64,000 nt of DNA from Candidatus Microgenomates bacterium (GTDB lineage: Bacteria; Patescibacteriota; JACPGU01): contig JACPGU010000001.1 of assembly GCA_016188915.1 (NCBI GenBank), positions 34,111 to 98,110 on the forward strand, read 5' to 3'. Shown one piece after another: positions 5,141 through 58,214 of the stretch. Within the stretch, counting starts at the first letter, position 1, and each line of letters begins with the position of its first letter. The notes below the pieces were generated by a model that was not told the DNA's origin, did not search any database, and worked only from the letters and a program-made list of their open reading frames with translations. The translations under genes and the position numbers were made by a program.

Positions 5141-5192
5141 ATACATATCCTTACTTTTTTAATTTTTTACTTTCTTATTTTCTTAGCCAGGG

Positions 5193-11385: not shown

Positions 11386-12780
<1,395 letters not shown>

Positions 12781-14586: not shown

Positions 14587-14668
14587 AATGAATTTTTAAT
14601 GATAAACATAATCCAATTATAGCATATACTTTTCTAATTTCTAAGACGATGTCATCTTAAGACACATG

Positions 14669-14698
14669 ACCTATAACTCACGACCGTGAGTTATAGGT
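14669..14698. promoter_or_regulatory. Palindrome B: ACCTATAACTCACG-AC-CGTGAGTTATAGGT, about 80 nt upstream of the cupin gene start. Same family as palindrome A.
   Basis: Perfect 14-bp arms; shares CGTGAGTTATAGGT with 3071..3112. Confidence 0.5.
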
Positions 14699-14756
14699 TA
14701 TGTGAGATGCTAAGAGCAGCTAGTTTGAGCAAGGAACTCCTTTTCGCCAAACAAAA

Positions 14757-14790
14757 AACCGCCCGAATGGGACGGTTTGGGTTGACGAGA
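14757..14790 (-). terminator. Rho-independent terminator (minus strand) after the tandem-repeat protein gene.
   Basis: On the minus strand ccgtcccattcgggcgg is followed by TTTTTTGTTT. Confidence 0.45.
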
Positions 14791-14805
14791 AGTTTTCTGG
14801 AGAGA

Positions 14806-15393
14806 TCAACTCTCCAATGCTTCCTCCCACCCTTTGATGATTTCTTCCAAGAGAGGCCTCACTTTCTCGCATTTCAGAGCTTCTTGGAATATCTTGATGG
14901 CGTCAGAGTCTCCCTCACGCACCAGATCCTTCAGGATATCAATGGCGTGGCGGTTCCCCTCTCTCACCAGATCCTTCAAGATCTTGATGGCATCATGGTC
15001 TCCCTCACGCATCAGATCCTTCAGGATATCAATGGCGTGGCGGTTCCCCTCTCTCACCAGATCCTGCAAGACCTTAGCGGCGATGAAGTTCCCCTCATTC
15101 ACCAGATCCTTCAAGATCTTGATGGCATCATGGTCTCCCTCACGCACCAGATCCTTCAGGATCTCGATGGCGCTGGAGTATCCATCATGCACCAGATCCT
15201 TCAGGTTATCAATGGCGTGAGGGTCTCCTGTCCGCACCAAGCTCTTCAAGACCCCGGTGGCGCGGAGGTCTTCTTTGCGCACTTGTTTTACCAGGTCCGC
15301 TATTTCTATTTCTTCTTCCCTCCTCTTGGATGCAAAACGTTCGAGAAGGGCATCAAGCCGTTCTTGTAAAGCCACCAGCAGTTCATTTGACAT
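14806..15393 (-). CDS. Tandem-repeat alpha-helical protein: about 8 copies of the 15-aa unit AI(D/K)ILKDLVREG(D/N)(H/R)(H/D), giving a 45/90-nt DNA period.
   Basis: G-rich RBS (aagggggggggaaagactg) before ATG 15393; terminator downstream. The antisense ORF 14686..15369 is also open but lacks start signals. Confidence 0.55.
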   Translation of the reverse strand: MSNELLVALQERLDALLERFASKRREEEIEIADLVKQVRKEDLRATGVLKSLVRTGDPHAIDNLKDLVHDGYSSAIEILKDLVREGDHDAIKILKDLVNEGNFIAAKVLQDLVREGNRHAIDILKDLMREGDHDAIKILKDLVREGNRHAIDILKDLVREGDSDAIKIFQEALKCEKVRPLLEEIIKGWEEALES

Positions 15394-15528
15394 CAGTCTT
15401 TCCCCCCCCCTTAGCCCTTTTATCAAGGAACAGTATTTCCCGATAATATATCGAGATATTGGCATTATGCTAAAAAACCCTAATATTAGCAAATAGTTAT
15501 GTTGTTTCTTGACCTATAGAAACTACTC

Positions 15529-21126: not shown

Positions 21127-21276
21127 AATGTTGTATAATTTTTAATTCTTAATTTTTTAATTTTTAAATAATGTCCTAAATCTTAATTTTTAAACTCAAA
21201 CGCTTTTGTATTCGTTTAGAAATTAGAAAATTGAGATTTATTTAAAAATTAAAAATTACAAAATTTAAAAATTTGA

Positions 21277-22226: not shown

Positions 22227-22538
22227 TTAGGCGATTATTTTGCCTATTTTGATTTTCGTTAATGTTTGCCTATGGCCGATACGGCGACGGTAGCCGGTTT
22301 TTCTTTTGAATCTTTGGATTTCTACTTTTTTGTCCTTGAATTGCTTCTCGATAATAGCCTCCACTTTGGCGCCACTGACAAAAGGCGCGCCGACATCTGT
22401 TTTCTTGTCATCGGCAACTAAAAGAACGCTTTCGAAAGTGGTGGTGCTTCCCTCTTCTCCCGTGATTTTCTCGACATCAAGAGATTGACCTTCTCGGACA
22501 ATATACTGTTTCCCGCCGGTTTTGATGATAGCTAGCAT
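22227..22538 (-). CDS. rplU: 50S ribosomal protein L21.
   Basis: MLAIIKTGGKQY... L21 signature. The start is likely ATG 22538, since a TTGCGC-17-TATAAT promoter abuts the ORF-track start at 22583. Confidence 0.8.
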   Translation of the reverse strand: MLAIIKTGGKQYIVREGQSLDVEKITGEEGSTTTFESVLLVADDKKTDVGAPFVSGAKVEAIIEKQFKDKKVEIQRFKRKTGYRRRIGHRQTLTKIKIGKIIA

Positions 22539-22585
22539 TTTCGTTTTAACTAAAAATAAGGTTTCGCACCTCGGATGATTCATAT

Positions 22586-23013: not shown

Positions 23014-23018
23014 ATTAT

Positions 23019-23080
23019 ACTTCACCAAGGTGGCACTTTAGGAAGATCTACTTCACCAAGGTGGCACTTTAGGAAGATCT
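23019..23080. repeat. Perfect tandem duplication of the 31-bp unit ACTTCACCAAGGTGGCACTTTAGGAAGATCT.
   Basis: Two identical adjacent copies between the OmdA stop codon and the convergent terminator. Confidence 0.8.
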
Positions 23081-23091
23081 AATGGAGCAAA

Positions 23092-23145: not shown

Positions 23146-23598
23146 TCAGTGCGTTTTGGGTTCGGTTTGGAACAGCTCTTCCGGGGAGATTTTTCTCAAT
23201 CTTTCTTCCAGAAAAGCACAGATGATTTTTTTGTCTTGTCCTTCTCGACCTCTTACTGAAAATTCAACATCAATGAGCCGTTTGTTCTTCTCCCTGTCAA
23301 ACATTCTGGCTCCGGTGACCTTGCCGATTATACCGCTAGTTCCTTTGAGGAATGTGACGGTGTCTCCGACCTTGATCTCGCCGTTATTTCCTTCTGTCAA
23401 CTCGAGTGGTTTGCCCAAACGATAGGGCTTGGGATTCTTGTCGCATCCACAGTCTGGCTTATGGTCTTCATGTATGTTTTGACATTTTCCGCCATTACAT
23501 ACGGGTAGCGCGAATTTGATCTCTTTGCGTCCCATGAATAATCCTTTGGGTTCTTCAATCAGTAAAAGTCCTTCCGCACTTTCCAGAACAGTTAGCAT
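23146..23598 (-). CDS. Hypothetical protein with a CxxxxC...CxC metal-binding cluster and a KOW-like segment.
   Basis: ORF with KVGDTVTFLKGTSGIIGKV (KOW-like) and a Cys cluster; the family assignment is uncertain. Confidence 0.4.
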   Translation of the reverse strand: MLTVLESAEGLLLIEEPKGLFMGRKEIKFALPVCNGGKCQNIHEDHKPDCGCDKNPKPYRLGKPLELTEGNNGEIKVGDTVTFLKGTSGIIGKVTGARMFDREKNKRLIDVEFSVRGREGQDKKIICAFLEERLRKISPEELFQTEPKTH

Positions 23599-24193: not shown

Positions 24194-27100
24194 CTATCTT
24201 TTTAAGGCAACAATAATATTCTGACTATCTATTATTTCTTCTTTTTTAATATCAAAATCTTTTACTTTCGTCAAATTGATTTCAGAAAGTTTAGTTTGCT
24301 CTTTTATTTTATCAATAAAGGAATCGAAAACGCCACGAATTTCTTCGCTTTCTGTTTCGATATAGGCCTCCACTTTTTCGTCAAAGTCGTAACGCGCCTC
24401 TTTGCGCGCGTCTTGGATGAGGCGCGTTATTTCGCGCATCAGGCCTTCTTTTTTGAGTTCTGGGGTGATTTCTGTATTTAGGGCGATTGATACTCCCCCA
24501 TCTTCTTTCTCGGCCCAGTTGTCATCGGGGGACAAAGTGTGCTTTGTCTCTAAAGAAACAGATTTGACATTCAATTCATCGCTAATAATGTTTAATAGTT
24601 CAATCTGCAATTTACAATTTACAATTTGCAATTCCCCCAACGGTTGCCTCACCTTAATCCCTTTTTCTTTACGCAAGGCGTGTCCCAACTCCACTATTTT
24701 TTTCACCATTTCCATTTCTTTTCCCAGCTTTTCGTCAATCAATTTTTCATCAAAAGAAGGGAAAGAGGCCAAATGCACCGACTCTTCTCCCATCAGGTTG
24801 CGATAGATTTCTTCGGAGACAAAAGGAGCAAAAGGAGCCAAAAGTTTGGTTATATCGAGCAATGTTTCGTAAAGAACAGCCAAGAAATTGTCGTCCGTCC
24901 TTTTTTTGTTATTGCGCACATACCAAGTGGAAAGTTCTATCGTGAATTCCTCGATGGCGCGAGAAGAAGTGAAAACATCATATTTATCCAAGCTTTCACT
25001 CACTTTTTTGATGAGGCGATTTTTCTTGGAAAGTAGCCAGCGATCAAAAAGAGGTCCCGAGGTCTCGCCTCCGGTGCTCCCGAGGCGAGACCTCGGGGTG
25101 AACTCTCGTGTACTTGCGTAGCCAACAAAGAAAGAGTAAGTGTTCCAGAGGATCAAAAGAAATCTCCTCACTTGATCGCGGACAGAATCTTCGTTCATTA
25201 ATTTGGACTCCCCCGGTTGATTGGCGGTATAGAAAAACCAACGGATAGCGTCGTAGCCATGACTATCACTTAGCTGAACAGGATCTAGAGAATTACCTCG
25301 AGATTTGCTCATCTTTTGCCCCTTGGCATCCAGTACTAGGCCGTTGGAAATGACATTTTTATACGCTGGGCCAAGTTCTAGGATGGTGGAAACAGCCAGC
25401 AGAGTATAGAACCAACCTCGTGTCTGGTCTTGGCCCTCGGCGATGAAATCGGCGGGGAAAAATTTCTTCTCGTCAATTTTTTCCTTATTTTCAAAAGGAT
25501 AATGCCATTGGGCGAAGGGCATACTGCCAGAATCCAACCAGCAGTCAGCGACTTCCGGAGTTCTCGTCATCTCTCCCCCGCATTCGCATTGTAATTTCAG
25601 GCGATCAATAAAAGGTTTGTGGAGATCTATAGATTTTTCATCCGCGAAGACTTCGGAGAAATTGACAGCTTTTTCTTTCAATTCCTCTATACTACCAATA
25701 CAAATAGTCCTTCCGCAACTTTTAGAATTTAGAGTTTCGGATTTAGAGTTTTTAGTTTGGCATTGCCAAAACGGTAACGGCGTTCCCCAATATCTGTCAC
25801 GCGAGATAGCCCAATCCCTGACTCCTTCTAGCCATTCGCCGAAACGACCGTCTTTCATGTGAGCCGGTATCCAATTGACTCGCGCGTTATTTTTTTTCAA
25901 TTTTTCTTTCAATTTACTCATGGCGATAAACCACGAATCTTTAGCGTAGTAGAGCAGAGCCGTGTCGCACCGCCAGCAAAAAGGGTAGTCGTGTTCGTAT
26001 AGTAGTGGCTCGCCAAACAAACCACTAGTTCCAGCGTCACCTTGCTTTTTTAAGTAATCAACGATTATTTTTTCAGTTTCTTTGTCTTTCGCAAGACGGT
26101 TCTCGAGTTCCTCTAAAATTTGATAGCTAGAAGCATAACCGCTTGGAAATGTAAACCTGCCATTCTCGTCTACTGTGTGTACTTTGGGGAGATCAACTAG
26201 TTCTCCCAGAAAATAATCTTCTTCACCATACATAACAGCAGCGTGCACCACTCCTGTACCATCTTCTGCAGTAACAAAGTCTGCTGAGTAAATCCTAAAG
26301 GCATTCTCATATCCTCCTACTTCTGGAGATATCGAGTTGAAGAGCTTTTCATATTCAAGATCTAGATCTTTACCAAGCATTTTAAACGAGAAATTCGTAG
26401 TTTTTAGCACAGCTTCAGCTCTAGAGGCAGCCACAATAAAAGTTTCATCTCCTATCTTTACGGTGCCATATTCTATATTTGAACCAACTGCTAAAGCGAC
26501 ATTACCTGGTAGCGTCCATGGTGTTGTTGTCCATGATAAGATAAAAGTTTTATCGTCTGTGACAGGAGAATCTGTCATTTTAGGATTAAGCAACTGACCT
26601 TTCTTTACCTTAAATTTCACATACACCGAATTTTCCGTCACCTTCTTATACCCCTGCGCTACTTCATGAGAGGAAAGCGCGGTACCGCAACGCGGACAAT
26701 ACGGGACGACTTTGTGTCCTTTGTAAATTAACTCTTTACGGAAGGCCTCCGATAGGATCCACCAGACGGATTCAATATAATTATTATCATAAGTGATGTA
26801 GGGGCGTTCCAAATCCAGCCAAAATCCCATTCTTCGGGTACTTTGTTCCCAGTCCGTTTTGTACTCCCAGACGCTATTTTTGCATTGCTCGTTGAAATCG
26901 GCGATACTTTCTTCGGGGTTCTTTTTCAATGTTTCAATCTGGGGTTTGCCGGAAATATTGAGCTTTTTTTCCACCTCCAGCTCTACCGGCAGACCATGCG
27001 TGTCCCAACCAGCTTTGCGTTCTACTCGGAATCCTTGCATTGTCTTGTAGCGCAAGAAAACGTCTTTCAGCGCGCGAGAGAAAATATGATGAATCCCAGG

Positions 27101-27256
27101 CCTCCCGTTGGCCGTTGGTGGCCCTTCAAAAAAAATAAAATCACCCTTGGGCGACTCTTTGGCCAAAGTTTTTTCAAATATTTTTTCCTTTTCCCAAAAA
27201 GACAGTATCTCTTCTTCTAGTTTGGGAAAAGATTGGCGCGGATCTACTTTTTTCAT
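24194..27256 (-). CDS. ileS: Isoleucyl-tRNA synthetase.
   Basis: PPTANGRPGIHH (HIGH region), KMSKSRGN (KMSKS), editing and zinc-binding regions; 1020 aa. Confidence 0.9.
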   Translation of the reverse strand: MKKVDPRQSFPKLEEEILSFWEKEKIFEKTLAKESPKGDFIFFEGPPTANGRPGIHHIFSRALKDVFLRYKTMQGFRVERKAGWDTHGLPVELEVEKKLNISGKPQIETLKKNPEESIADFNEQCKNSVWEYKTDWEQSTRRMGFWLDLERPYITYDNNYIESVWWILSEAFRKELIYKGHKVVPYCPRCGTALSSHEVAQGYKKVTENSVYVKFKVKKGQLLNPKMTDSPVTDDKTFILSWTTTPWTLPGNVALAVGSNIEYGTVKIGDETFIVAASRAEAVLKTTNFSFKMLGKDLDLEYEKLFNSISPEVGGYENAFRIYSADFVTAEDGTGVVHAAVMYGEEDYFLGELVDLPKVHTVDENGRFTFPSGYASSYQILEELENRLAKDKETEKIIVDYLKKQGDAGTSGLFGEPLLYEHDYPFCWRCDTALLYYAKDSWFIAMSKLKEKLKKNNARVNWIPAHMKDGRFGEWLEGVRDWAISRDRYWGTPLPFWQCQTKNSKSETLNSKSCGRTICIGSIEELKEKAVNFSEVFADEKSIDLHKPFIDRLKLQCECGGEMTRTPEVADCWLDSGSMPFAQWHYPFENKEKIDEKKFFPADFIAEGQDQTRGWFYTLLAVSTILELGPAYKNVISNGLVLDAKGQKMSKSRGNSLDPVQLSDSHGYDAIRWFFYTANQPGESKLMNEDSVRDQVRRFLLILWNTYSFFVGYASTREFTPRSRLGSTGGETSGPLFDRWLLSKKNRLIKKVSESLDKYDVFTSSRAIEEFTIELSTWYVRNNKKRTDDNFLAVLYETLLDITKLLAPFAPFVSEEIYRNLMGEESVHLASFPSFDEKLIDEKLGKEMEMVKKIVELGHALRKEKGIKVRQPLGELQIVNCKLQIELLNIISDELNVKSVSLETKHTLSPDDNWAEKEDGGVSIALNTEITPELKKEGLMREITRLIQDARKEARYDFDEKVEAYIETESEEIRGVFDSFIDKIKEQTKLSEINLTKVKDFDIKKEEIIDSQNIIVALKR
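25056..25097. repeat. Perfect 16-bp inverted repeat (cccgaggtctcgcctc...gaggcgagacctcggg) inserted in frame in ileS (encodes PRSRLGSTGGETSGPL).
   Basis: Read directly from the sequence. GC-rich, in contrast to the surrounding CDS. Confidence 0.6.
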
Positions 27257-33208: not shown

Positions 33209-33248
33209 TTTAGAAATTAGAGTAATTAGAAATTAGGTCAATTTTTTT
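33209..33248. promoter_or_regulatory. TTAGAAA / TTAGRNYAA heptad array (TTAGAAATTAGAGTAATTAGAAATTAGGTCAATTTTTTT) upstream of the NYN gene.
   Basis: Same motif family as 28099..28216 and 47324..47358. Confidence 0.4.
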
Positions 33249-34750
33249 ATGATTTTCTTGGCCACCACTAAACCCTCCTTCTTTTTCTGGAAAGTTCCTT
33301 CTAATTGCTGATTATAAACTTCCTCCAGCACTTTTCCAACTACTTTATTACCACTAGTTATCCCCATGAGCTTCATAATGTCGTGACCGGTAATGATTGG
33401 TTTCGGCAAGGGCTTCTTGTTCTCTTCCTCTTCCAGCCAAGACTTGGTTCTGTTGTAAACCGTTAAGTCTGGCGGGAGGATTTGCCCTCTTTTGTTAGTT
33501 CGCAGAGACGAATTGGCGTCCACCCAGAAAAGTTCCAGCAAGTCCGGGAAATAGGGGTGTTTCAAGTACATTATTTTGCGAGCCTCCCGCATTTTGGCTA
33601 GATTGCCAAAAAGCATATGATATTGGACGAGCCATTGGGCTTTGTCAATCTCTTCCCGAGAATATTTTAGTCGGCGCATGATTACTCCCGTCATCTTCGC
33701 GCCGAGAACGTCGTGCCCCGTGAAACGAACGCGGTCAGTGCCGTCTTTTTCTGGGGTTTGAATAGTGTAGGCTTTGGCTAGGTCGTGAAAAAGCACGCCC
33801 AAAGCATAGATGGGGTCGTCGTGCTTTCTCATATTTTTCAGGCAAAGCAACATATGATTCCAGACCGTGCCTTCGGCGTGATGAGAGGGCGGTTGATCGC
33901 AGGTGTGCGACTTGTCTATTTCCGGGATGATGAAATGGAGCAGACCAAGGTCGTCGAGCAATTTTAGCCCATGGCTGGGATTGGGCGAGGTCAAGATCTT
34001 GTTCAGCTCGTCGCGAAGGCGTTCGCCGGAAATTTTCGTAATATCGGCAGAGTGTTTTCTGATCGCGTCAAAGGACTTTTCTTCAATGACGAAATCCAGT
34101 TGCGCGGCAAATCTTGTTGCCCTCATCATTCGCAGAGCGTCTTCTTTGATCCTCTCCTCTGGTTCTCCGATGAATCTGATTGTTTTGGTCTTGATATCGG
34201 CAAAGCCATCAACATAATCAATGATTTCTAAATTTTTAATTTTTAATTTTCCCCACGCCTTTAGCGGGGTCCCGCCTACTATTTTATTCTCAAAAAGATG
34301 TGGCGGGATAATTTTTAAAGAATTTTTGAATTTTGTAATTTTTAATTTTGGATTTTGGATTTTTGCCACCAGTCCATTGATAGTAAAATCACGACGCAAG
34401 ACATCTTCCTCTATCGAAACATTGAATTTTACTTTTTGCGGGTGGCGCTGATCGGCTGTCCCATAATCACTCCTGAAAGTGGCGATTTCAATCAGTTGGT
34501 TGGTTTTTTTCGTCAAAGGCACGATGGCCGCCACCACCCCAAAGCTCTCCCCTATTTCAATATGCTTGACCTTGTTTTTATCCAAAGCTTTGATCGTCTC
34601 TTCCGGTGTGGCGGAGGTAGCGATATCAATATCGTGAATTTTTCGTCCCATAATCTTGTCGCGCACATACCCACCGGCAAACAAGGCAGTGTGACCTGCC
34701 TTTTCTAAAATTTCAATAATTTTTCCAGCGTTTTTTTCTTGGAGAGTCAT
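33233..34750 (-). CDS. cca: CCA-adding tRNA nucleotidyltransferase with an HD domain. Carries an in-frame ~45-aa insert encoded by the repeat element.
   Basis: GGYVRDKIMGRKIHDIDIAT, RRDFTINGL motifs. HD region HHAEG...HDLAK. The insert ...[26 protein letters not shown] lies after the RDFTIN motif. Confidence 0.85.
   Translation of the reverse strand: MTLQEKNAGKIIEILEKAGHTALFAGGYVRDKIMGRKIHDIDIATSATPEETIKALDKNKVKHIEIGESFGVVAAIVPLTKKTNQLIEIATFRSDYGTADQRHPQKVKFNVSIEEDVLRRDFTINGLVAKIQNPKLKITKFKNSLKIIPPHLFENKIVGGTPLKAWGKLKIKNLEIIDYVDGFADIKTKTIRFIGEPEERIKEDALRMMRATRFAAQLDFVIEEKSFDAIRKHSADITKISGERLRDELNKILTSPNPSHGLKLLDDLGLLHFIIPEIDKSHTCDQPPSHHAEGTVWNHMLLCLKNMRKHDDPIYALGVLFHDLAKAYTIQTPEKDGTDRVRFTGHDVLGAKMTGVIMRRLKYSREEIDKAQWLVQYHMLFGNLAKMREARKIMYLKHPYFPDLLELFWVDANSSLRTNKRGQILPPDLTVYNRTKSWLEEEENKKPLPKPIITGHDIMKLMGITSGNKVVGKVLEEVYNQQLEGTFQKKKEGLVVAKKIIKKLT
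34252..34316 (-). repeat. Copy 2 of the ~65-nt conserved core element, in frame within cca and flanked by AAAATT arrays.
   Basis: Differs from 16032..16096 at about one position over 65 nt. Confidence 0.8.
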
Positions 34751-34892
34751 GTGGGATAGTGGATAGTGGATAGTGGATAGTGAATAGACTTACTTTGACA
34801 GAATGATGATATTATACCATTTTTCTCGGGCAAAACAAAAAACCCGCTGGTGAGGCGGGCGAACGCGGAATGAGAACCCGTAAAGGGTGGGT

Positions 34893-38258: not shown

Positions 38259-39716
38259 TTATTTCTTTATCTTTTTATTTTTCCTATAATCTTCTTCTTC
38301 GGCCTTTCTTTCTTCTACCATATTGAAAACTCGTTCTGTTAATTCCTTTAGTTCTACGGTTTCTTGAATGCCATCACGCATATCACGAACCAGAGCTACA
38401 TTTGTCACGGCTTCTCTCTGTCCGATGATAACAGAAAAAAGAGCGTTTACTTTGTCGGCTGCTTTCATTTGCGCCTTGATTGTATCTTTGCCTACAGCCA
38501 TACCGACGGAAATACCTATCTTCCGCAGATTTTTTACTATTTGCAAAGCTATTTTTTTTGATTCTTCTCCCAGGTGAATAACATAGACATTGATTTTGGA
38601 TTTGGGCTTGGGAACTCTGATATTTTCTGTTTTGAGGTGTTCCACAATCCTGTCTATCCCCAGACCAAAACCGATAGCTGGAGTCATCTCGCCGCCCAAT
38701 TCTTCCACGAGACAGTCATAGCGTCCTCCCCCGCCCAAAGCGTTTTGTCTTTTGGTGTCATTCTTGGTGATTATTTCAAAAACTGTGCGATTATAATAAT
38801 CAAATCCACGGACGAGATTGGGAGCCAAATTATATGGCACACCCATCTCGTCTAGATATTCTAAGACAGACATAAAGTGTCCTTTGCAGTCTTCGCAAAT
38901 ATTTTCTATCATCAAAGGTGCGACTGCGATTAGTGCTTGGCATTTTTCATTTTTACAATCCAGAATACGCAAAGGATTTTTTTTCAATCTTTTTTTGCAA
39001 TCATCACAAAGTTTGCTCTCTTTTTTCTTAAAAAAATCTGTCAATATTTTTTTTATTCTTGGCCGACAGACAGAACAACCCATAGAATTAATGTTTATCT
39101 CGGCGCTGGTTATTCTCATATCTGTTAGCATTTGCCACGACACGCCGATAGTGTTGGCATCAATGGTAGGATCTGATTCTCCGAATATTTCTACCGAACA
39201 TTGCGTAAATTCGCGGAAACGTCCAGATTGAGGATTCTCGTGGCGAAAACAACGACCGATAGTGTAGAGAGAAACTGGCTTGGGCCAAACCTGCATGCCA
39301 TTTTCAATATAGGCTCGTACTATGCCAGCGGTTAATTCTGGTCGTAGAGCCAATTGAGACTGCTCTTCTTTGTCTTTTTTTCCACTTGTTCCCTTGTTTT
39401 TGCTACCATCAAAAACATACATTTCCTTGCTGACGACATCGGTTTCTTCGCCAACGCTACGCAGGAAAAGATCGGATTTTTCCAGCATAGGGACCTCTAT
39501 TTTTTCCAGCCCCGCTCCCTGGGCTACTGATTCAATAACGCTTATCGCGAAATCCCAGTAATGACTGTCTTCTGGTAAGATATCGCGAAATCCCTTGAGG
39601 CGGTTTATTGGTTGCATTTTAGGCATAAAAATATAACGGCAAATAGTAAATTTGGAGGCAATAAAAACAAACCTCTTCTTACTATTATACCGCACTCTGT
39701 CAAGAGCGAGTGGCAT
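38259..39716 (-). CDS. hisS: Histidyl-tRNA synthetase with a Cys-rich (zinc-ribbon-like) insertion; the start is probably an internal ATG (~39633).
   Basis: Class II motifs (RPELTAGIVRAY; FRHENPQSGRFREF; GGGRYD); anticodon-binding C-terminal domain. Confidence 0.8.
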   Translation of the reverse strand: MPLALDRVRYNSKKRFVFIASKFTICRYIFMPKMQPINRLKGFRDILPEDSHYWDFAISVIESVAQGAGLEKIEVPMLEKSDLFLRSVGEETDVVSKEMYVFDGSKNKGTSGKKDKEEQSQLALRPELTAGIVRAYIENGMQVWPKPVSLYTIGRCFRHENPQSGRFREFTQCSVEIFGESDPTIDANTIGVSWQMLTDMRITSAEININSMGCSVCRPRIKKILTDFFKKKESKLCDDCKKRLKKNPLRILDCKNEKCQALIAVAPLMIENICEDCKGHFMSVLEYLDEMGVPYNLAPNLVRGFDYYNRTVFEIITKNDTKRQNALGGGGRYDCLVEELGGEMTPAIGFGLGIDRIVEHLKTENIRVPKPKSKINVYVIHLGEESKKIALQIVKNLRKIGISVGMAVGKDTIKAQMKAADKVNALFSVIIGQREAVTNVALVRDMRDGIQETVELKELTERVFNMVEERKAEEEDYRKNKKIKK

Positions 39717-42213
39717 CCATTTTATTTCTGAGAATTTTTTTCTTTTCTAGGTTTAGACTGTCAGTTTTTGCATCTATTATGATATGATCACCAGAAATAA
39801 AGCGATCACCAATCAATTCTTCGGCTAATTTGTTTTCTATCTCTGCTTCTATCAAGCGACGGATCGGACGAGCGCCGTATTCCGGGTCAAATCCCCGATC
39901 AGCCAGCCATTTTTTAGCTTTGGCGGTGAATTCTAGGACAATACCTTTTTCCAGCAGGACTCTTTCCGCTAAAGTTTTCAGATTGATATTAACGATTTTG
40001 CCGATAGCAATACTATCTAATGGGCGAAAAACAACTATTTTGTCTACGCGATTGAGAAACTCCGGACTGAAATATTTTTTACTATCTGTCAAAACTTTGT
40101 TTTTCATTTGCTCGTAATCGCTCTCGGCCAAAGTTTTTTCTCGAGTTGTTTTGGCGGAAAATCCCATTGTAGCGGAACGGGACAAATCGGCCATTCCCAG
40201 GTTAGAAGTCATAATAATAATGGTGTTTTTGAAATCCACCTTGCGTCCTTTGGCATCAGTCAAATACCCATCTTCCAAAACTTGCAAAAGCATATTGAAA
40301 ACTTCGGGATGAGCTTTTTCTATTTCGTCAAACAGAACTACTGAATACGGTTTCTTACGGACTGCTTCGGTCAGTTTGCCCCCGTCGTCATAACCGACGT
40401 AACCTGCCGGTGCGCCGACAAGACGGCTGACATTATGTCGTTCCATGAATTCCGACATATCTATTTTGATTAGAGCATCCTCCCTCTCGTAAACTTCTTG
40501 AGCGAGGACTTTGGCTAATTCTGTTTTTCCCACTCCGGTTGGTCCTAGGAAAATAAAAGAACCGATTGGCCTGACGGGATTGCCCACGCCAGATCTACTT
40601 CTCCTGATAGCTCGGGCGATATTGATAATGGCTTCCTCTTGTCCGACGATTCGGCTCCCAAGAGTTTTTTCCAAAAAACTGAATTTATGGATTTCGGAAG
40701 AGATTAATTTGGTGATAGGGATACTGGTCCAATTACTGACTACGCGAGCGATGTCTTCCGTAGTAACTCGCGCTCTTTTTTCAGTTGGAATATCTTGTTT
40801 TTCCAAACGTAAGCGATCTAGCTCTTCTTTCAAAAATAATTCTTGGTCGCGTAACTGGGCGGCCATTTCAAAGGCTTGATCGGAAATAGCTTTATTTTTG
40901 CCCTTGATAGTTTCGACCAATCTGATCTCTAATTTTTTGACATCTTCGCTCTCCCCTACTTTTTCACGGATAACAACGGCTGAGCAGGCCTCATCCAGCA
41001 AATCAATAGCTTTGTCTGGCAGAAATCTATCGGCGATGTAGCGATGAGCAAGTTTGGCCGCAATCAAAAGAGCCTCTTCCTCTACCTTCACTTGGTGAAA
41101 ATCTTCATAGCGCGGAGCAATGCCTCGTAGAATAGCCACTGTTTCTTCCTGGCTTGGCTCTTCTACCAAAATGGGCTGAAAGCGTCTCTCAAAAGCGGCG
41201 TCTTTTTCAATATATTTACGATATTCATTGATGGTAGTGGCTCCGATACAGGATATTTTGCCACGAGAAAGAGCCGGTTTTAGCATATTACTAGCATCCA
41301 TTGACCCTTCTGCCGCGCCTGCTCCGACGATGGTATGCAATTCGTCAATAAAAAGAATAATGTTTTTGTCTTTTTCTACCTCGGCCAGCAACTTTTTTAT
41401 TCTTTCCTCAAATTCACCCCTAAATTTCGTGCCGGCGACCATGGCGCCCAGGTCGATAGAATAAATTTTTTTACCTTTTAGTTTGATCGGCACCTCCCCG
41501 AAAGCTATTTTGGCGGCCAATCCTTCTACAATGGCGGTTTTGCCTACGCCCGGATCGCCGATTAGAACAGGGTTGTTTTTAGTTTTGCGCGTTAAAATAT
41601 GAGTTAGGCGCGATATTTCTTTTTCACGACCGATGGTGGGATCGAGTTTTGTACCCTCGGCCTCTGCTGTCAAATCAATAGCATAAGCGTTCAACATAGA
41701 ATTAGTTTTATTTTTGACAGTACGGCCGGCAGTTACCTCTTGCTCTTTTGGTTTTTCAGGCATTTGCGCGGTGGACATAACAAAGATATGTTCAATTTGC
41801 TGAATAATGGTGGCTGGATTAACATCAATATTCTGGATTAAAGCGTAGGCTCTGAAATCAGAATTAGACAAAATACCAAAAAGCAGATGTTCACTGCCAA
41901 CATAAAAATGCTCATTTTGTCGCGCTACAACGATGGCTTTTTCTAGAGCTTGCCTCAAATCATGAGAAAGCCCGTTTTTCTGTAAATCCATTGAGCCATG
42001 CCACATCAAATTCATGGCAATTTCTATTCTTTCAAAATCTATTCCAAAACTAGATAATATTTCGTAGGCCACACCAATTTTTTCCGCTAAAATAGCGAGT
42101 AATACATGCTCGGTGCTGACAGCGCCAGAATTCATATCTTGAGCAATAGTCTGCGAAAGACTCAAAATTTTTTTAGCGTTGTAGGTGAAACGGTCAAAGC
42201 CAAATTCATTCAT
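39700..42213 (-). CDS. clpC: ATP-dependent Clp chaperone ClpC (two AAA+ modules, Clp_N repeats).
   Basis: Two Walker A sites ([13 protein letters not shown]; [12 protein letters not shown]); N-terminal Clp repeats; 837 aa. Confidence 0.85.
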
Positions 42214-44219: not shown

Positions 44220-45437
44220 TTATTCGGTCGGAAGGTTGGTCTCGCTATTCTCCTCACTGGCGTCCTTTTTTTTCTTGGTTTTTTTCTCCTTCGGTTCTTT
44301 TTCGATTTTTTCTTTCTTTGCCTTTTTCACTTTTTTCTTTTCCCCCTCTTCCCCTTCGGTTGCTTCGCCCACCGGATTTTCTTTTTTCTCTACTTTTACC
44401 GGCTTTTGCGCGACATCCAGCACATCTATCTTCCAATCAGAGAGTTTGGCGGCCAGGCGAACATTTTGACCACTTTTACCGATAGCCAAAGACAGTTGGT
44501 CGGATTCCACATAGACAATAGCCTCTTTTCTTTTTTTGTCCAATTTCACTTCTGCGATTTTGGCCGGAGACAAAGCATTCGTGATATAGGCCTCTTCATT
44601 GCCGTCCCAAAGTACAATATCTATTTTCTCATTGTTTAGTTCTCCCAGGACCGCCTGAACACGCGTACCCCTTTGTCCTACGCATGAACCGACGGGGTCT
44701 ACTCCTTCTTGCAAAGCTCTCACAGCTATTTTGGTTCTGATGCCTGCCTCTCTAGCGATGCCCATTATCTCTACCGTGCCGGCCTCTATCTCTGGCACTT
44801 CAACCATAAAAAGATAACGAATCAGATCTGGATGGGCACGAGAGACGACAATCTGTGGACCGCGGTTATTTTTTTCTACCGAGGCAATGATCACTTTTAT
44901 CCTTTGGCCGGTGCGATAATGCTCGCCTACTATTTGATCGGCCGGAAACATAATGCCATTAGCCCGACCCAGATCAACGATGACATTACCCATATCTACT
45001 TGCTGAACTACGCCGTTGACCAATTTTCCTTCCTGTGATTTGAATTCATCAAAAACAATTTCGCGTTCTAGTTCTTTCAGCTTTTGGATAATTACTTGTT
45101 TAGCAGTTTGAGCGGCAATGCGACCAAAATCTTCATGAGATGGCAAATCGTAACTTATCTCTCCTTCTAGCTCTGCTTTTTTATCCATTTTTTTAGCTTC
45201 TTTTAGGGATATCTCGCAATTTTCGTCAGCTACTGCTTCCACTATTTTTTTTACCTGCCAAAATTTCATTAGCCCCTTTTCTGGGTCTATTTTGCAGCGG
45301 ATAATCTGGGTCGGCTTGCCATAATCTTTCCTGTACGCCGCTCCCAGCGCCGCTTCTACGGCCTCCAAGATAGCCTCTTTGCTAATCTTTTTCTCATCGG
45401 CCAGATGTTCGAGAGCCAAGATGAATTCTGCGTTCAT
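44220..45437 (-). CDS. nusA: Transcription termination factor NusA with a Lys/Glu-rich C-terminal tail.
   Basis: S1 and KH domain pattern; N-terminal MNAEFILALEHLADEKKISKEAI. Confidence 0.85.
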   Translation of the reverse strand: MNAEFILALEHLADEKKISKEAILEAVEAALGAAYRKDYGKPTQIIRCKIDPEKGLMKFWQVKKIVEAVADENCEISLKEAKKMDKKAELEGEISYDLPSHEDFGRIAAQTAKQVIIQKLKELEREIVFDEFKSQEGKLVNGVVQQVDMGNVIVDLGRANGIMFPADQIVGEHYRTGQRIKVIIASVEKNNRGPQIVVSRAHPDLIRYLFMVEVPEIEAGTVEIMGIAREAGIRTKIAVRALQEGVDPVGSCVGQRGTRVQAVLGELNNEKIDIVLWDGNEEAYITNALSPAKIAEVKLDKKRKEAIVYVESDQLSLAIGKSGQNVRLAAKLSDWKIDVLDVAQKPVKVEKKENPVGEATEGEEGEKKKVKKAKKEKIEKEPKEKKTKKKKDASEENSETNLPTE

Positions 45438-45450
45438 GGGTTTGGGTTAG

Positions 45451-55706: not shown

Positions 55707-58214
55707 ATGAAGGCATATAGTCCTCAAAAAATAGAACCTAAATGGCAAAAGATTTGGGAAGAGAAAGGTATCTTCTCCGCTCTTGATTTTGACCAGAAGC
55801 CGAAGAAATACCTGCTTTTTGAATTCCCCTATCCTTCGGGCGACAGGCTCCATGTCGGTCACGCTCGTTCTTACACGGCTCTGGACGCGATGGCAAGAAA
55901 AGCTAGAATGGAAGGCTACAATGTGCTCCTGCCAATGGGTTGGGACGCCTTTGGCTTGCCGACCGAAAATTACGCGATCAAGAATAAAATCAGCCCGCAG
56001 AAAGTGACAGTCGAAAATATCGCCAATTCTAAAAAACAGGCGCAATCTTGGGGGTTATCGATTGACTGGAATCGAGAAATCAATACTACTGATCCGGATT
56101 ATTATAAATGGACGCAATGGATTTTCATTCAATTGTTCAAGCATGGCCTCGCCTATCGCGCTAAAACACAAGTGAACTGGTGCCCATCGTGCAAGACCAC
56201 TCTGGCCAACGAAGAAGTGCTCTCCGATGGCACGCATGAAAGATGCGGTTTTGCGACTGAAAAAAGAGAGCAAGAGCAATGGGTGATAAAAATCACGGCT
56301 TACGCCGACCGCTTGATTGATGACTTGGCGGAAGTAGATTTCTTGGAAAAGATCAAAACCCAGCAAATCAACTGGATCGGAAGAAGTTTAGGCATCAATA
56401 TTTCTTATAATATTGAGGGGCTAGATGGCCAAATAGCCGTCTATACTACTCGCCCCGACACAAATTTCGGAGCAACCTTTATCGTTGTCGCCCCCGAAAG
56501 TGACTTCGTCAAAGAACATTTAAAAGATTTTTCCAATCAAGACGAGATATCTAAATATATTGAAGCCTCGAAGAAAAAAACTGACATAGAGCGTATTGCC
56601 GAGGGCAGAAAAAAAACTGGTGTCAACACGGGGTTGGTCGCCATCAACCACTTAACTGATAAGAAAATGCCTATTTATGTCAGCGATTTCGTTCTGGCCA
56701 CAGTAGGAACGGGTTGCGTGATTGGTGTGCCAGGACACGACATCAGAGATTTTGAATTTGCCACCGAAAAAGGCCTGGAAATTATTCGTGTTGTTGTGGG
56801 TAGTGATGGTGATACTTCCCCTATTACGAAACCAGAACAAGTTCAAGAGGAAAAAGGCAAAATGATTAACAGCGGATTCCTGGACGGCATGGATATTCAT
56901 GAGGCAACTACAAAGATTATGGATTATATAGAGGAAAAAGGTTGGGGCAAAAAAATAAAAAGGTATCATCTTCGCGATTGGATTTTTTCAAGGCAACATT
57001 ATTGGGGAGAACCTATTCCATTGATTTTTTGCAATTTTTGCAAAAAATCAATGGAAGCTCAAAACTCAAAACTCAAAGCTCAAAATAAAGGCGAATCATT
57101 AAATCCCGGTTGGTTTGTCGTGCCGGAGGAAGAGCTACCGGTAAAACTTCCGGAACTGGAACATTATGAACCGTCCGGCACTGGTGAGTCGCCTCTGGCA
57201 AAGATTGCCAACTGGGTTAATGTGAAATGTCCAAGGTGTGGCGGAGAAGCCAAAAGAGAGACCGACACTATGCCCAATTGGGCCGGATCTAATTGGTATT
57301 ATCTAGGCTACCTGCTAAAATCACAAATAACAAATAGCAAATCACAAACATTTTTTAACGAAGAAACAACGAAAATCCTTAAATATTGGATGCCGGTGGA
57401 TTTGTATAATGGCGGAATGGAGCACACCACCCTGCACTTGCTCTATTCGCGTTTTATCTATAAATTCCTTTACGACATCGGTGTGGTGCCGACGAAAGAG
57501 CCCTACGCGCAGAGAAGATCGCACGGAATGATCTTGGGTCCTGATCGGCAAAAAATGAGCAAATCTCGAGGCAATGTCGTCAATCCGGACGAGATTGTGG
57601 CCAAACATGGAGCCGATGCCTTTCGCCTCTACGAAGCCTTCATCGGGCCTTTCGACCAGACTGTTTCTTGGAGCGATGAGTCGCTGGCCGGTTGCTCGCG
57701 TTTTCTTTCTCGCGTCTGGAGCATCAGTCAAGAAAAAGTTTCTGATTCCCCTACCCCACCAGAACTGCTAAAAAAGTTGCACAAAACCATCAAAAAAGTC
57801 GGCGCCGATATTGACGAGATGAAATTCAATACAGCCGTGGCCGCCATGATGGAATTCGTCAACGATTGGCAAAAAGAAAGTTTTTTGAACAAAAAAGACG
57901 CGCAAGATTTCTTGAAGATTCTCTCCCCTTTCGCGCCGCATATCACCGAGGAGCTTTGGGAAATACTGGAGGGCAAGGGTCTGATCGCCGAAAATTCTTG
58001 GCCAAAATATGACGAATCGCTCATCAAAGATACTGTCGTTACCATTGTTATCCAGGAGAATGGCAAACTACGAGGCGATATTGAGGCTCCCTTTGATTCT
58101 AGCGAAGAAGAGATATCGGCTATTTGCCAAAACTCGCCAAAATTTACGCATCTTGTCGAAAATACTAAAAAAGTTATTTACGTAAAAAACAAATTGATTA
58201 ATTTTGTGAAATAG
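55707..58214 (+). CDS. leuS: Leucyl-tRNA synthetase.
   Basis: HVGHARSY (HIGH), KMSKSRGN (KMSKS), CP1 editing domain; 835 aa. Confidence 0.9.
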   Translation: MKAYSPQKIEPKWQKIWEEKGIFSALDFDQKPKKYLLFEFPYPSGDRLHVGHARSYTALDAMARKARMEGYNVLLPMGWDAFGLPTENYAIKNKISPQKVTVENIANSKKQAQSWGLSIDWNREINTTDPDYYKWTQWIFIQLFKHGLAYRAKTQVNWCPSCKTTLANEEVLSDGTHERCGFATEKREQEQWVIKITAYADRLIDDLAEVDFLEKIKTQQINWIGRSLGINISYNIEGLDGQIAVYTTRPDTNFGATFIVVAPESDFVKEHLKDFSNQDEISKYIEASKKKTDIERIAEGRKKTGVNTGLVAINHLTDKKMPIYVSDFVLATVGTGCVIGVPGHDIRDFEFATEKGLEIIRVVVGSDGDTSPITKPEQVQEEKGKMINSGFLDGMDIHEATTKIMDYIEEKGWGKKIKRYHLRDWIFSRQHYWGEPIPLIFCNFCKKSMEAQNSKLKAQNKGESLNPGWFVVPEEELPVKLPELEHYEPSGTGESPLAKIANWVNVKCPRCGGEAKRETDTMPNWAGSNWYYLGYLLKSQITNSKSQTFFNEETTKILKYWMPVDLYNGGMEHTTLHLLYSRFIYKFLYDIGVVPTKEPYAQRRSHGMILGPDRQKMSKSRGNVVNPDEIVAKHGADAFRLYEAFIGPFDQTVSWSDESLAGCSRFLSRVWSISQEKVSDSPTPPELLKKLHKTIKKVGADIDEMKFNTAVAAMMEFVNDWQKESFLNKKDAQDFLKILSPFAPHITEELWEILEGKGLIAENSWPKYDESLIKDTVVTIVIQENGKLRGDIEAPFDSSEEEISAICQNSPKFTHLVENTKKVIYVKNKLINFVK

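What the first reader, a model, noticed from the sequence alone, without database searches (positions are those of the whole stretch)
25056..25097. Perfect GC-rich palindromes inserted in frame in ileS and tgt
ileS carries a perfect 16-bp inverted repeat with a 10-nt spacer (cccgaggtctcgcctc cggtgctccc gaggcgagacctcggg), translated as ...PRSRLGSTGGETSGPL... tgt carries a ~78-bp element with 11-bp terminal inverted repeats (gattgcagatt...aatctgcaatc) at 12100-12177. These are different sequences from the 65-nt core, but the behaviour is the same: a structured element inside an ORF that keeps the frame.
Basis: seen in the sequence. Interest (0 to 1): 0.55.

Follow-up and report, generated by a model that had tools for sequence, protein, structure and literature searches.

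The report
Coding hairpin palindrome inside ileS
An essential gene (ileS) of an uncultured CPR bacterium carries a perfect 42-base hairpin that is read in frame as a floppy protein loop. It most likely arose by local fold-back copying during DNA synthesis, not by insertion of a mobile element.

Summary
The ileS palindrome is real. It lies at 25056-25097, with 16-bp perfect arms and a 10-nt spacer, is 76% GC, and is in frame as PRSRLGSTGGETSG. It appears in two independent assemblies and is far beyond chance.

It is not a clean 42-nt insertion. The IleS linker is only 5 aa (about one arm) longer than in relatives and a solved IleRS. The 5' arm covers an ancestral Pro position. No second copy exists in the 64-kb window.

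The tgt element (12101-12176) is a different thing. It is 32% GC and is a palindromic array of 7-nt repeats that adds about 17 aa in one of four variable Tgt loops.

leuS holds a third perfect palindrome, 19 bp. Its left arm is made of conserved codons and its right arm begins an insertion. That shows fold-back copying operates in this genome.

Best reading (0.5): coding palindromes made in place by template switching and tolerated in flexible loops.

One observation favours a dispersed double-hairpin family. A 58%-identical relative's ileS has a 49-nt double hairpin with the same CCCCGAGG/CCTCGGGG stem at another site. Parcubacteria ligA and fmt carry the same 13-nt apex in other frames.

Verdict: partly supported, moderately interesting.

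The parts
24194..27256 (-). ileS (isoleucine--tRNA ligase, 1020 aa), the host gene
   Evidence: ORF and translation. It is 100% identical to NCBI protein P0001. It matches PDB IleRS 8c8w at E = 2.7e-230.
25056..25097 (-). 42-nt coding palindrome, also readable as a double hairpin. It encodes PRSRLGSTGGETSG (aa 721-734).
   Evidence: AF2 predicts a coil with pLDDT <50 at residues 726-730, between helices 689-716 and 736-757.
25082..25097 (-). 5' arm on the sense strand (CCCGAGGTCTCGCCTC, codons P-R-S-R-L). It overlies the ancestral linker position and is the putative template arm.
   Evidence: The Pro aligns with the conserved Pro of relatives and of 8c8w. Which arm is ancestral is inferred, not shown.
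25056..25071 (-). 3' arm on the sense strand (GAGGCGAGACCTCGGG, codons G-E-T-S-G). It is the putative inverted copy and accounts for the net +5 aa.
   Evidence: The net length difference of 15 nt is about one arm. Inference.
25756..25770 (-). Mini-palindrome TTTGGCA-A-TGCCAAA across W-Q-C-Q-T in ileS. The left arm is conserved codons and the right arm starts the next insertion.
   Evidence: The relative has the same structure, 11 bp long (L070 11420-11442).
25721..25751 (-). 7-nt periodic in-frame insertion in ileS (KNSKSETLNSK) inside the zinc knuckle
   Evidence: (family D13). AF2 pLDDT is <50 at residues 503-511.
11428..12780 (-). tgt (queuine tRNA-ribosyltransferase, 450 aa), the host gene. 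It has four lineage-specific loop insertions.
   Evidence: (PDB Tgt, E = 7e-92, three aligned stretches separated by insertions).
12101..12176 (-). Palindromic heptamer microsatellite: (CAGATTG)n ... (AAATCTG)n, 11-bp perfect terminal inverted repeat. It encodes [26 protein letters not shown].
   Evidence: It adds 16 aa against PDB Tgt and 17 aa against the nearest relative P0241. It is 32% GC.
57016..57056 (+). Second perfect coding palindrome of the window, in leuS: 19-bp stem, 3-nt loop. The left arm is the conserved PIPLIFC codons and the right arm starts a 22-aa insertion.
   Evidence: alignment to T. thermophilus LeuRS 2v0c.
57054..57086 (+). Heptamer array (CTCAAAA x4) directly after the leuS palindrome. 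It encodes AQNSKLKAQNK.

Best explanation
The ileS palindrome is a 'coding palindrome' made in place. During DNA synthesis the nascent strand folded back on a short quasi-palindrome in the linker between the catalytic body and the anticodon-binding helices. It then copied about 15-16 nt of its own upstream sequence. The result is an exact reverse-complement copy 10 nt away and a net gain of 5 codons. The new tract has no stop codon in any frame and falls in a flexible inter-helix loop, so it is simply translated (PRSRLGSTGGETSG) and tolerated. Once formed, a perfect hairpin can be kept perfect by the same arm-to-arm template switching.

The tgt element comes from the same replication sloppiness in another form. 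A local 7-mer (CTGCAAT/AAATCTG) expanded by slippage. Only steps of 3 units (21 nt) keep the frame. The array was then duplicated in inverted orientation.

Shown: the structure, frame, loop location, net length change, single-copy status, and that fold-back copies of conserved codons exist in leuS and ileS of this genome.
Inferred: the mechanism, which arm is ancestral, and the absence of a dedicated function.
For: 1. Net length. The linker is 22 aa against 17 aa in P0002, P0004, P0005 and P0007. There is a 5-aa gap against PDB 8c8w, with F-T-P-R-S aligned to Y-D-P-E-Q. The 15-nt difference is about one 16-nt arm, not 42 nt.
2. Same genome, leuS 57016-57056. The left arm encodes PIPLIFCNFC, aligned to the conserved PIPMVHCEAC of T. 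thermophilus LeuRS. The right arm (K-K-S-M-E) is its reverse complement and opens a 22-aa insertion.
3. The ileS W-Q-C-Q-T mini-palindrome has the same layout in the window and in the relative L070. It is absent from P0002, which lacks the insertion.
4. tgt. The right terminal repeat overlies N-L-Q-S-R-P, aligned to T-L-N-P-N-P of P0241. The whole 84 nt is in one 7-nt register, and the left units are reverse complements of the right units.
5. There is a single copy in 64 kb. There is no target-site duplication, no transposase nearby and no Rfam family.
6. The ligA clade of Parcubacteria shows the process over time. A single hairpin lies on sequence only 1 aa longer than in the 65%-identical relatives (L063). 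Others carry inverted doublets (L062, L008, L061, L064, L065). The loop flips between L061 and L064.
7. The Fmt palindrome (L024) overlies VEIEE---RETTGS with only +3 aa.
8. The codons used are not rare, and three other places reach the same maximum GC (32 of 42), so foreign origin is not needed.
9. AF2 places the peptide in a low-confidence coil between two helices.
10. The mechanism is established in E. coli and elsewhere as quasipalindrome template-switch mutation (PMC7202029). It was proposed for the coding palindromes of Nematomorpha (PMC6649704).
Against: 1. The only double hairpin in the relative's 21-kb contig sits in ileS at a different site (L070 10822-10870). It has the same 8-bp stem, CCCCGAGG/CCTCGGGG, read in another frame. 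I estimate by hand, not from a tool, that two independent local events would share this stem with probability about 1e-4 to 1e-3.
2. The 13-nt apex GAGGTCTCGCCTC recurs as in-frame palindromes in Parcubacteria ligA (L008/L026) and fmt (L024), which share 20 nt with each other. It also recurs in two low-GC hairpins (L025, L029).
3. No relative closer than 58% aa identity exists in 5.8 billion proteins. The ancestral state of this linker cannot be reconstructed, so the choice of ancestral arm is a guess.
4. The compensatory changes in the ligA hairpin could reflect selection for a function rather than conversion.
Confidence: 0.5

Rival explanations
1. The palindrome belongs to a dispersed family of very small GC-rich double-hairpin elements. 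Each has two short hairpins in inverted orientation, with a stem ending in GAGG/CCTC. The family would spread among housekeeping genes of CPR bacteria and survive only where it lands in frame in tolerant loops. Spread could be by transposition or by ectopic conversion that overwrites a patch of similar length.
For: - Window element: ACCCCGAGG-TCTCG-CCTCGGG AGCA CCGGAGG-CGAGA-CCTCGGG.
- L070 element: TCCCCGAGG-TTCAA-CCTCGGGGA AGT TCCCCGAGG-TTGAA-CCTCGGGGA.
- The two share stem and architecture but differ in ileS site and reading frame.
- Among 120 IleS homologues only these two show the peptide signature.
- The same 13-nt apex occurs in ligA (frame G-L-A-S / R-R-D-L), fmt (E-V-S-P / G-G-E-T-S) and ileS (R-S-R-L / G-E-T-S). 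That covers all three frames, so any relationship is at the DNA level.
- L008 and L024 share 20 nt of arm.
- The element has no stop codon in any of the six frames (read from the sequence).
- One copy per 64 kb would still allow 10-20 per genome, a density like that of Rickettsia RPEs (own knowledge).
Against: - There is no second copy in 64 kb of the window or 21 kb of the relative.
- Net length change is +5 aa (window), about 0 (P0003, by hand count on alignment A1) and +3 (Fmt). None equals the element length.
- The L008 apex is 3 substitutions from the L062 apex at the orthologous ligA site. It therefore arose there by descent, not by insertion.
- The apex matches were found by searching for that apex. 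Palindromes are so common (3 with >=16-bp arms and 22 inverted repeats of >=11 bp within 60 nt in 64 kb) that I estimate a handful of 13-mer coincidences across the roughly terabase searched. That expected count is a hand estimate, not a tool result.
- 22 of 23 hits to the 11-mer version were high-GC terminators.
- No transposase, terminal-repeat plus duplication signature, or known family was found.
Confidence: 0.3
2. The hairpin is a selected RNA or DNA structure. It could be an RNase III or other processing site, a translational pause at a domain boundary that helps co-translational folding, or a binding site for a lineage-specific protein.
For: - The hairpin is very stable (-51 kcal/mol, z = -6).
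- It lies at a boundary between structural modules.
- In the ligA clade a hairpin at one site persists across 76-88%-identical relatives. It shows 95.6% pairing, two compensatory pair changes and 0 of 500 shuffles reaching the covariation score.
- The GAGG/CCTC stem end and 5-nt loops recur.
Against: - The position is not conserved. The nearest IleS relatives have no hairpin in this linker: P0002 has none and P0003 has a heptamer array there.
- The relative's hairpin is elsewhere in the gene.
- Apex sequences vary freely within the ligA clade.
- Perfect arms with a flipping loop fit conversion as well as selection.
- It is not terminator-like. The T-run starts 5 nt after the stem.
- There is no Rfam match.
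Confidence: 0.12
3. The palindrome is an assembly or library artefact, such as a fold-back chimera or adaptor remnant.
For: Palindromes can arise from fold-back chimeric reads. The arms contain convergent GGTCTC/GAGACC (BsaI-type) sites, as in cloning cassettes (read from the sequence).
Against: - The identical gene appears in the NCBI MAG and in an independent Logan assembly.
- The ORF is intact across it and the flanks continue the IleS alignment.
- The constant part shared with other loci is only 13-20 nt and is embedded in locus-specific stems.
- Analogous structures occur in orthologous positions of seven ligA genes from different samples.
Confidence: 0.02

Closest known systems
[quoted passage not shown] 2019, PMC6649704)
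   Same: Perfect inverted repeats lie inside protein-coding genes, with both arms translated. They sit on sequence of roughly ancestral length and are gained and lost between relatives. Their perfection is attributed to arm-to-arm conversion or template switching rather than to function.
   Different: Those are in organelle genomes, are much longer (up to 284 bp) and are numerous per genome. Here the host is a CPR bacterium, the palindromes are 42 nt and 41 nt, there are two per 56 kb of CDS, and they lie in variable loops rather than conserved regions.
Quasipalindrome-associated template-switch mutations (E. coli and yeast; PMC7202029, PMC9435742)
   Same: This is the mechanism proposed here. 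The nascent strand switches to a nearby inverted template. That turns imperfect inverted repeats into perfect ones, or creates short inverted copies next to the source.
   Different: Those are laboratory or polymorphism-scale events of a few bases. Here the fixed products are 15-19 nt, sit in essential genes and are combined with 7-nt slippage arrays.
Rickettsia palindromic elements (RPE; own knowledge, Ogata et al. 2000; discussed in PMC1779305 and PMC6649704)
   Same: Hairpin-forming DNA is found in frame inside housekeeping ORFs, is translated and lies in surface regions. The host is a reduced-genome bacterium.
   Different: RPEs are 100-150 bp and occur in dozens of dispersed copies with a family consensus. 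They are clean insertions, and their repeat identity decays with time. The ileS element is 42 nt, single-copy in the window, adds only 5 aa and is perfect.
REP doublets / REPINs and BIMEs (own knowledge, Bertels & Rainey 2011)
   Same: Two short palindromes in inverted orientation can fold either as two small hairpins or as one long hairpin.
   Different: REPINs are extragenic, number in the hundreds, carry a conserved 5' motif and depend on a RAYT transposase. None of this is seen here.
Mitochondrial GC clusters and double-hairpin elements (Allomyces DHEs, yeast GC clusters, sponge RHEs; PMC2800124, PMC4478555)
   Same: Short GC-rich elements that fold into one or two hairpins inside AT-richer genomes. 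They are occasionally found inside coding or rRNA genes at length-variable sites.
   Different: They are organellar, multi-copy and mostly intergenic. Their mobility is documented by filled and empty sites, which could not be shown here.
Low-complexity or microsatellite insertions in housekeeping proteins, and palindromic microsatellites (Plasmodium Asn-rich inserts, own knowledge; Fusarium mtDNA, PMC7218506)
   Same: This is the best match for the tgt element: slippage-generated repeats tolerated in surface loops, with arrays arranged as inverted copies.
   Different: The unit here is 7 nt, so the frame survives only in steps of three units. The same periodicity pervades intergenic and coding DNA of this genome.

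Membership tests
RPE-like in-frame palindromic mobile element | Hairpin-forming sequence inside an ORF, in frame and without stop codons | tested here: met
RPE-like in-frame palindromic mobile element | Several dispersed copies with a common consensus in the same genome | tested here: not met
   There is no second copy in the 64-kb window. The rest of the MAG could not be searched, because the genome is not in genome contigs.
RPE-like in-frame palindromic mobile element | Clean insertion: the host protein is longer than its orthologues by the length of the element | tested here: not met
   ileS gains 5 aa against a 14-aa element. For tgt, 16-17 aa of 26 are extra.
MITE | Terminal inverted repeats plus a target-site duplication, in multiple copies | tested here: not met
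   The flanks are ...TTCAC | palindrome | ACCTC..., with no direct repeat. It is single-copy.
REP / REPIN (RAYT-mobilised) | Doublet of short palindromes in inverted orientation | tested here: met
   (C)CCGAGG-TCTCG-CCTC(C)GG plus CCCGAGG-CGAGA-CCTCGGG.
REP / REPIN (RAYT-mobilised) | Extragenic location and tens to hundreds of copies | tested here: not met
   It is inside ileS and single-copy.
REP / REPIN (RAYT-mobilised) | A RAYT (IS200/IS605-like) gene in the genome | not testable with these tools
   None was found among 20 neighbouring proteins. The whole genome is not available.
Intrinsic terminator | GC-rich hairpin followed within 0-2 nt by a U-run | tested here: not met
   It was not called by the scan. 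On the sense strand the stem is followed by ACCUC and then UUUUU.
Any described RNA family (Rfam 15) | Covariance-model match at the gathering score | tested here: not met
   There were 0 matches in the window at gathering score. The only matches were generic hairpin hits to miRNA models at 19-21 bits against thresholds of 66-68.
Coding palindrome (Nematomorpha type) | Perfect inverted repeat inside a CDS with both arms in the reading frame | tested here: met
   Translation is inferred from ORF continuity, not from peptides.
Coding palindrome (Nematomorpha type) | The arms lie on sequence of ancestral length (replacement rather than insertion) | tested here: inconclusive
   Net change is +5 aa for ileS, about 0 for the relative's element, +3 for Fmt and +1 for the single ligA hairpin.
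Coding palindrome (Nematomorpha type) | Arm identity actively maintained over time | tested here: inconclusive
   No close relative exists for ileS. In the ligA clade pairing is 95.6% with two compensatory pair changes.
Template-switch (fold-back) product | The new tract is the exact reverse complement of adjacent pre-existing sequence | tested here: met
   Clear for leuS, where the left arm is conserved codons. For ileS it is consistent but the ancestral arm is inferred.
Template-switch (fold-back) product | Ancestral allele without the copy observed in a close relative or in the population | not testable with these tools
   The nearest IleS is 58% identical.
Heptamer microsatellite (tgt element) | Continuous 7-nt register, with units related by slippage | tested here: met
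   TRF period 7 at 12101-12131 and 12153-12182. There are 12 units in one register, and the left units are reverse complements of the right units.

The most novel reading that the evidence does not exclude
CPR bacteria harbour an undescribed class of very small (40-55 nt) GC-rich double-hairpin elements. They propagate between housekeeping genes by conversion-like overwriting of tolerant loops, not by cut-and-paste insertion. They work in any reading frame because they lack stops in all six frames. They are kept as perfect palindromes for long periods, with covarying stems, copy number changing between one and two hairpins, and flipping loops. The window's ileS palindrome and the relative's CCCCGAGG-stem element would be two members of one lineage-specific subfamily.
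Probability: 0.25. Interest if true: 0.75.

Novelty: new variant of a known kind. Interest (0 to 1): 0.5.

Why it matters
Perfect hairpins inside essential genes are rare, because the DNA structure and the protein sequence constrain each other. Here two aminoacyl-tRNA synthetase genes and tgt of one CPR bacterium carry such structures. Related CPR genomes show them recurring in ileS, ligA and fmt.

If they are by-products of fold-back and slippage errors, they are a visible signature of how the stripped-down replication and repair systems of CPR bacteria remodel even core proteins. They would also explain part of the many lineage-specific insertions seen in CPR housekeeping proteins.

If they form a spreading family instead, they would be the smallest in-frame selfish elements described in bacteria.

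In practice they matter for annotation and phylogeny. They are non-homologous patches inside marker genes, and they create long perfect hairpins that can disturb assembly, PCR and alignment.

Tried and rejected
1. Genome-contig scan with 11-mer arms. It gave 23 loci. 22 are in 58-72% GC genomes and look like ordinary terminators, so I rejected them as chance. The window's own genome is not in that collection, so genome-wide copy number could not be obtained.
2. Peptide search for the six-frame translations of the element, meant to find other host proteins. 1110 word candidates were found but none scored E <= 10. This led nowhere and cost one protein search.
3. Viral-contig scans. The double-arm pattern gave no hit. 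The 15-mer apex gave 33 hits. 32 of them have no stem extension and nearly all are in high-GC contigs, so I took them as chance. Only L029 (33% GC phage ORF) has an extended 11-bp stem.
4. Intrinsic terminator or attenuator inside ileS. Rejected because the T-run is displaced by 5 nt and the scan does not call it.
5. Known RNA family, tRNA or tmRNA fragment. None found.
6. Foreign GC-rich DNA. Rejected because three other places in the window reach the same maximum GC (32 of 42) and all 14 codons are in normal use.
7. tRNA T-arm, CRISPR repeat, attC, telomere-resolvase site, DNA-uptake sequence and archaeal-type intron. I considered these from memory and dropped them, because loop size, copy number, conserved positions or coding continuity do not fit.
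8. Adaptor or Golden-Gate-like artefact (convergent GGTCTC sites). Rejected because two assemblies agree and the stems are locus-specific.
9. Extending the window through a look-up of its last ORF. That protein is not on record.
Full report
**What the window is.** The 64-kb window has 42% GC. It carries housekeeping genes on a contig of an uncultured Candidatus Microgenomates (CPR) bacterium. These include ileS, leuS, tgt, rplJ/L/A, rplU, nusG, ftsZ and a CCA-adding enzyme. The IleS protein is 100% identical to an NCBI MAG protein, and the next relative in 5.8 billion proteins is only 58% identical. No Rfam family and no tRNA was found in the window.

**The ileS observation.**
- Positions 25056-25097 are CCCGAGGTCTCGCCTC-CGGTGCTCCC-GAGGCGAGACCTCGGG, with 16-bp perfect arms and a 10-nt spacer.
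- It is 42 nt, or 14 codons, in frame in ileS (24194..27256, minus strand). It reads PRSRLGSTGGETSG, residues 721-734.
- As RNA it folds at -51 kcal/mol (z = -6.0, 0 of 200 shuffles).
- Perfect hairpins this long do not occur in Markov simulations of the window.
- Codon shuffling of all CDS gives 0.05 hairpins of >=12 bp, against 2 observed.
- An independent Logan assembly gives the identical gene, so it is not an assembly artefact.
- Each arm is itself a small hairpin: (C)CCGAGG-TCTCG-CCTC(C)GG and CCCGAGG-CGAGA-CCTCGGG. The element can therefore fold as one long hairpin or as two short ones.

**Is the ileS element an insertion?** Only partly.
- In the alignment with 23 relatives it sits in the variable linker between FFVxYA and FDxW. 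That linker is 22 aa here and 17 aa in the four nearest relatives.
- Against the solved IleRS 8c8w there is a 5-aa gap, and F-T-P-R-S aligns with Y-D-P-E-Q.
- The net gain of 15 nt equals one arm, not the 42-nt palindrome. The sense-strand 5' arm lies on an ancestral position.
- The AF2 model (mean pLDDT 84.5) has only two segments below pLDDT 50. One is residues 726-730, inside this peptide, which forms a coil between helices 689-716 and 736-757. The other is residues 503-511, a second insertion.
- There is no second copy in the window. There is also no flanking direct repeat, no transposase among 20 neighbouring genes and no terminator-like U-run.
- The GC content is high but ties with three other places at the window maximum, and the codons are in ordinary use.

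**The tgt observation.**
- The 11-bp terminal repeats are there, at 12101-12111 and 12166-12176.
- The element is 32% GC and only 83% self-complementary over 24-nt arms. It folds weakly (z = -1.85). An 11-bp inverted repeat at that spacing is expected 1.4 times per window by chance.
- Its real feature is a continuous 7-nt register. On the sense strand it reads CAGATTG CAGATTG ATGATAG CAGATCG ... CTGAAAT CTGAAAT CTTAAAT CTGCAAT. The left units are reverse complements of the right units.
- Against solved Tgt structures the protein has four insertions, and this one adds 16 aa.
- Against the nearest relative (P0241, 62% identical) it adds 17 aa. Other CPR Tgt proteins carry unrelated insertions in the same four loops.
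- The right terminal repeat overlies N-L-Q-S-R-P, which aligns with T-L-N-P-N-P of P0241. One end is therefore ancestral sequence, and the array looks like an expansion and inverted duplication of it.

- leuS (55707..58214, plus strand) contains the longest perfect hairpin of the window. It lies at 57016-57056, with a 19-bp stem and a 3-nt loop.
- Its left arm encodes PIPLIFCNFC, which aligns with the conserved PIPMVHCEAC of T. thermophilus LeuRS.
- Its right arm is the reverse complement of those conserved codons. It opens a 22-aa insertion that continues with a CTCAAAA x4 array.
- This shows directly that, in this genome, new in-frame sequence is made by fold-back copying of adjacent coding sequence followed by 7-nt slippage.
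- The same layout occurs at W-Q-C-Q-T in ileS (25756-25770, followed by the array at 25721-25751). It also occurs in the relative's ileS (CCGGTTTGGCA-G-TGCCAAACCGG). P0002 lacks both the insertion and the palindrome.

**Related sequences elsewhere.**
- A collection-wide search for the arms found mostly high-GC terminators.
- It also found a 51-nt perfect palindrome with the same 13-nt apex, in frame in ligA of a 42% GC Parcubacteria genome (L008/L026).
- It found a 42-nt palindrome in fmt of a 41% GC contig (L024) and hairpins in two other low-GC contigs (L025 intergenic; L029 in a phage ORF).
- The three coding cases use three different reading frames.
- I fetched six ligA relatives at 76-88% identity. 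All carry a hairpin at the same site, single in L063 and L066 and doubled in inverted orientation in L062, L008, L061, L064 and L065.
- In these the outer stem is conserved and the inner stem covaries. The loop is flipped between L061 and L064.
- Formally, 95.6% of cells are paired, two pairs show compensatory change, and 0 of 500 shuffles reach the covariation score.
- The single hairpin makes the protein only 1 aa longer than in 65%-identical relatives that lack the hairpin-type peptide.
- The L008 apex differs from the L062 apex by three substitutions. At that locus the apex therefore arose by descent, not by insertion.
- The Fmt palindrome likewise overlies VEIEE---RETTGS, with +3 aa.

**The observation that cuts the other way.**
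- The ileS of P0003 is a 58%-identical relative on a syntenic contig. It has a 49-nt perfect double hairpin: TCCCCGAGG-TTCAA-CCTCGGGGA AGT TCCCCGAGG-TTGAA-CCTCGGGGA.
- That is the same 8-bp stem as the window's element. The loop differs, the reading frame differs, and the site is about 1.3 kb away in the gene.
- There it replaces a stretch of the same length as in P0004.
- It is the only double hairpin in 21 kb of that contig, as the window's is the only one in 64 kb.
- I estimate the probability of such stem identity by chance at about 1e-4 to 1e-3. This is a hand estimate, not a tool result.
- L008 and L024 also share 20 nt of arm in different genes.
- These facts fit a dispersed or ectopically copied family better than purely local events.

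**Weighing.** For the ileS palindrome itself I put the readings as follows.
- In-place fold-back origin: 0.5. It rests on the net length, the ancestral Pro, the single copy and the demonstrable fold-back copies in leuS and ileS.
- Dispersed double-hairpin family: 0.3. It rests on the shared stem with P0003 and the shared apex in Parcubacteria. Part of that is search ascertainment.
- Selected RNA or DNA structure: 0.12.
- Artefact: 0.02.
- The first two are not exclusive. Template switching to an ectopic hairpin would give both the 'replacement without length change' and the shared stems.

**Comparison with what is known.**
- The closest described phenomenon is the coding palindromes of Nematomorpha mitochondria (PMC6649704). 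The closest mechanism is quasipalindrome template switching (PMC7202029, PMC9435742).
- Rickettsia RPEs, REPINs and mitochondrial GC-cluster or double-hairpin elements share some features. Each fails on copy number, size, location or clean insertion (see the membership table).
- Full-text searches found no description of such structures in CPR bacteria.
- I rate it a new variant of a known kind, of moderate interest.

Noticed in passing
window 57016-57086 (leuS, + strand): A perfect 19-bp-stem, 3-nt-loop palindrome lies inside leuS. Its left arm is the conserved PIPLIFC codons, and a CTCAAAA x4 array follows. Together they open a 22-aa insertion after the CxxC knuckle.
   Followed up: yes
window 25721-25770 (ileS) and L070 11420-11442: The mini-palindrome TTTGGCA-A-TGCCAAA spans W-Q-C-Q-T and is followed by a 7-nt array (KNSKSETLNSK). 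The relative P0003 has an 11-bp version followed by CCAATNN heptamers, so this insertion predates their split.
   Followed up: yes
L070 10822-10870 (= L068 1322-1370), ileS of P0003: A 49-nt perfect double hairpin with stem CCCCGAGG/CCTCGGGG encodes TPRGSTSGKFPEVEPRG. It shares its stem with the window's palindrome but sits at another site and in another frame. There is no net length change against P0004.
   Followed up: partly
window 11859-11938, 12400-12464, 11692-11723 (tgt): Three further in-frame insertions lie in Tgt. The one at 11859-11938 is a copy of the dispersed AT-rich TAATTTTT-type repeat, which is also found in intergenic DNA at 21131-21270, 58468-58590 and 59439-59563 and inside the U32 peptidase ORF (10075-11385) at 11108-11172. 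Family D13 (TTTAGAA-type) occurs at 11692, 12433, 25721 and 58552.
   Followed up: partly
It is a GC-rich core (GCCCACGCCTTTGGCGGGGTCCCGCC...GTGGCGGG) embedded in the AT-rich repeat, in two copies 85% identical over 117 nt. One lies between rplJ and rplL. The other lies inside the ORF of the CCA-adding enzyme / poly(A) polymerase family protein (33233..34750).
   Followed up: partly
window 42217-42247, 45446-45474, 34749-34789, 49688-49718, 58245-58282: Short perfect 7-nt arrays (AGTATTA, GGATAGT, ATACTTA/ATACCTA, 3-5 units) sit in intergenic DNA, three of them within a few bases upstream of a start codon (39700..42213, 44220..45437, 33233..34750). Their role is unknown.
   Followed up: no
window 3071-3112, 14663-14704, 4305-4342: A palindromic motif recurs in intergenic DNA, GACCTATAA(G/C)TCACG / CGTGA(G/C)TTATAGGTC. 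It looks like an operator for one DNA-binding protein.
   Followed up: no
window 4180-5190: About 1 kb has no ORF of >=100 aa and holds several strong hairpins (4305-4342, 4748-4869 with 24-nt arms, 4894-4931, 5102-5141). There is no Rfam or tRNA/tmRNA match. It may be an unrecognised RNA gene.
   Followed up: partly
window 14792-15286: A tandem array with a 45-nt period (7 copies, 60-80% identical) overlaps ORFs on both strands (14686..15369 + and 14806..15492 -). It is a repeat protein with no credible Pfam family; the only hit (CPT_N, 22.3 bits) is below its curated cutoff.
   Followed up: no
window 23018-23081: A 31-nt unit is repeated 2.1 times at 100% identity in the gap between ORFs 22227..22583 and 23146..23598.
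   Followed up: no
L008 2512-2567, L061, L062, L063, L064, L065, L066 (ligA of Parcubacteria): At one site just upstream of the KxDG motif, every relative has one or two hairpins. The outer stem ACTTGGA/TCCAAGT is conserved, the inner stems covary, and the loop is flipped between L061 and L064.
   Followed up: yes
L024 (fmt, 1291-nt metagenome contig): Besides the 42-nt palindrome (NLEVSPPFGGETSKS), this Fmt has an in-frame 7-aa repeat (TTYNLPP x3) made of heptamer-type DNA. The combination of palindromes and 7-nt arrays is therefore not confined to the window's lineage.
   Followed up: partly
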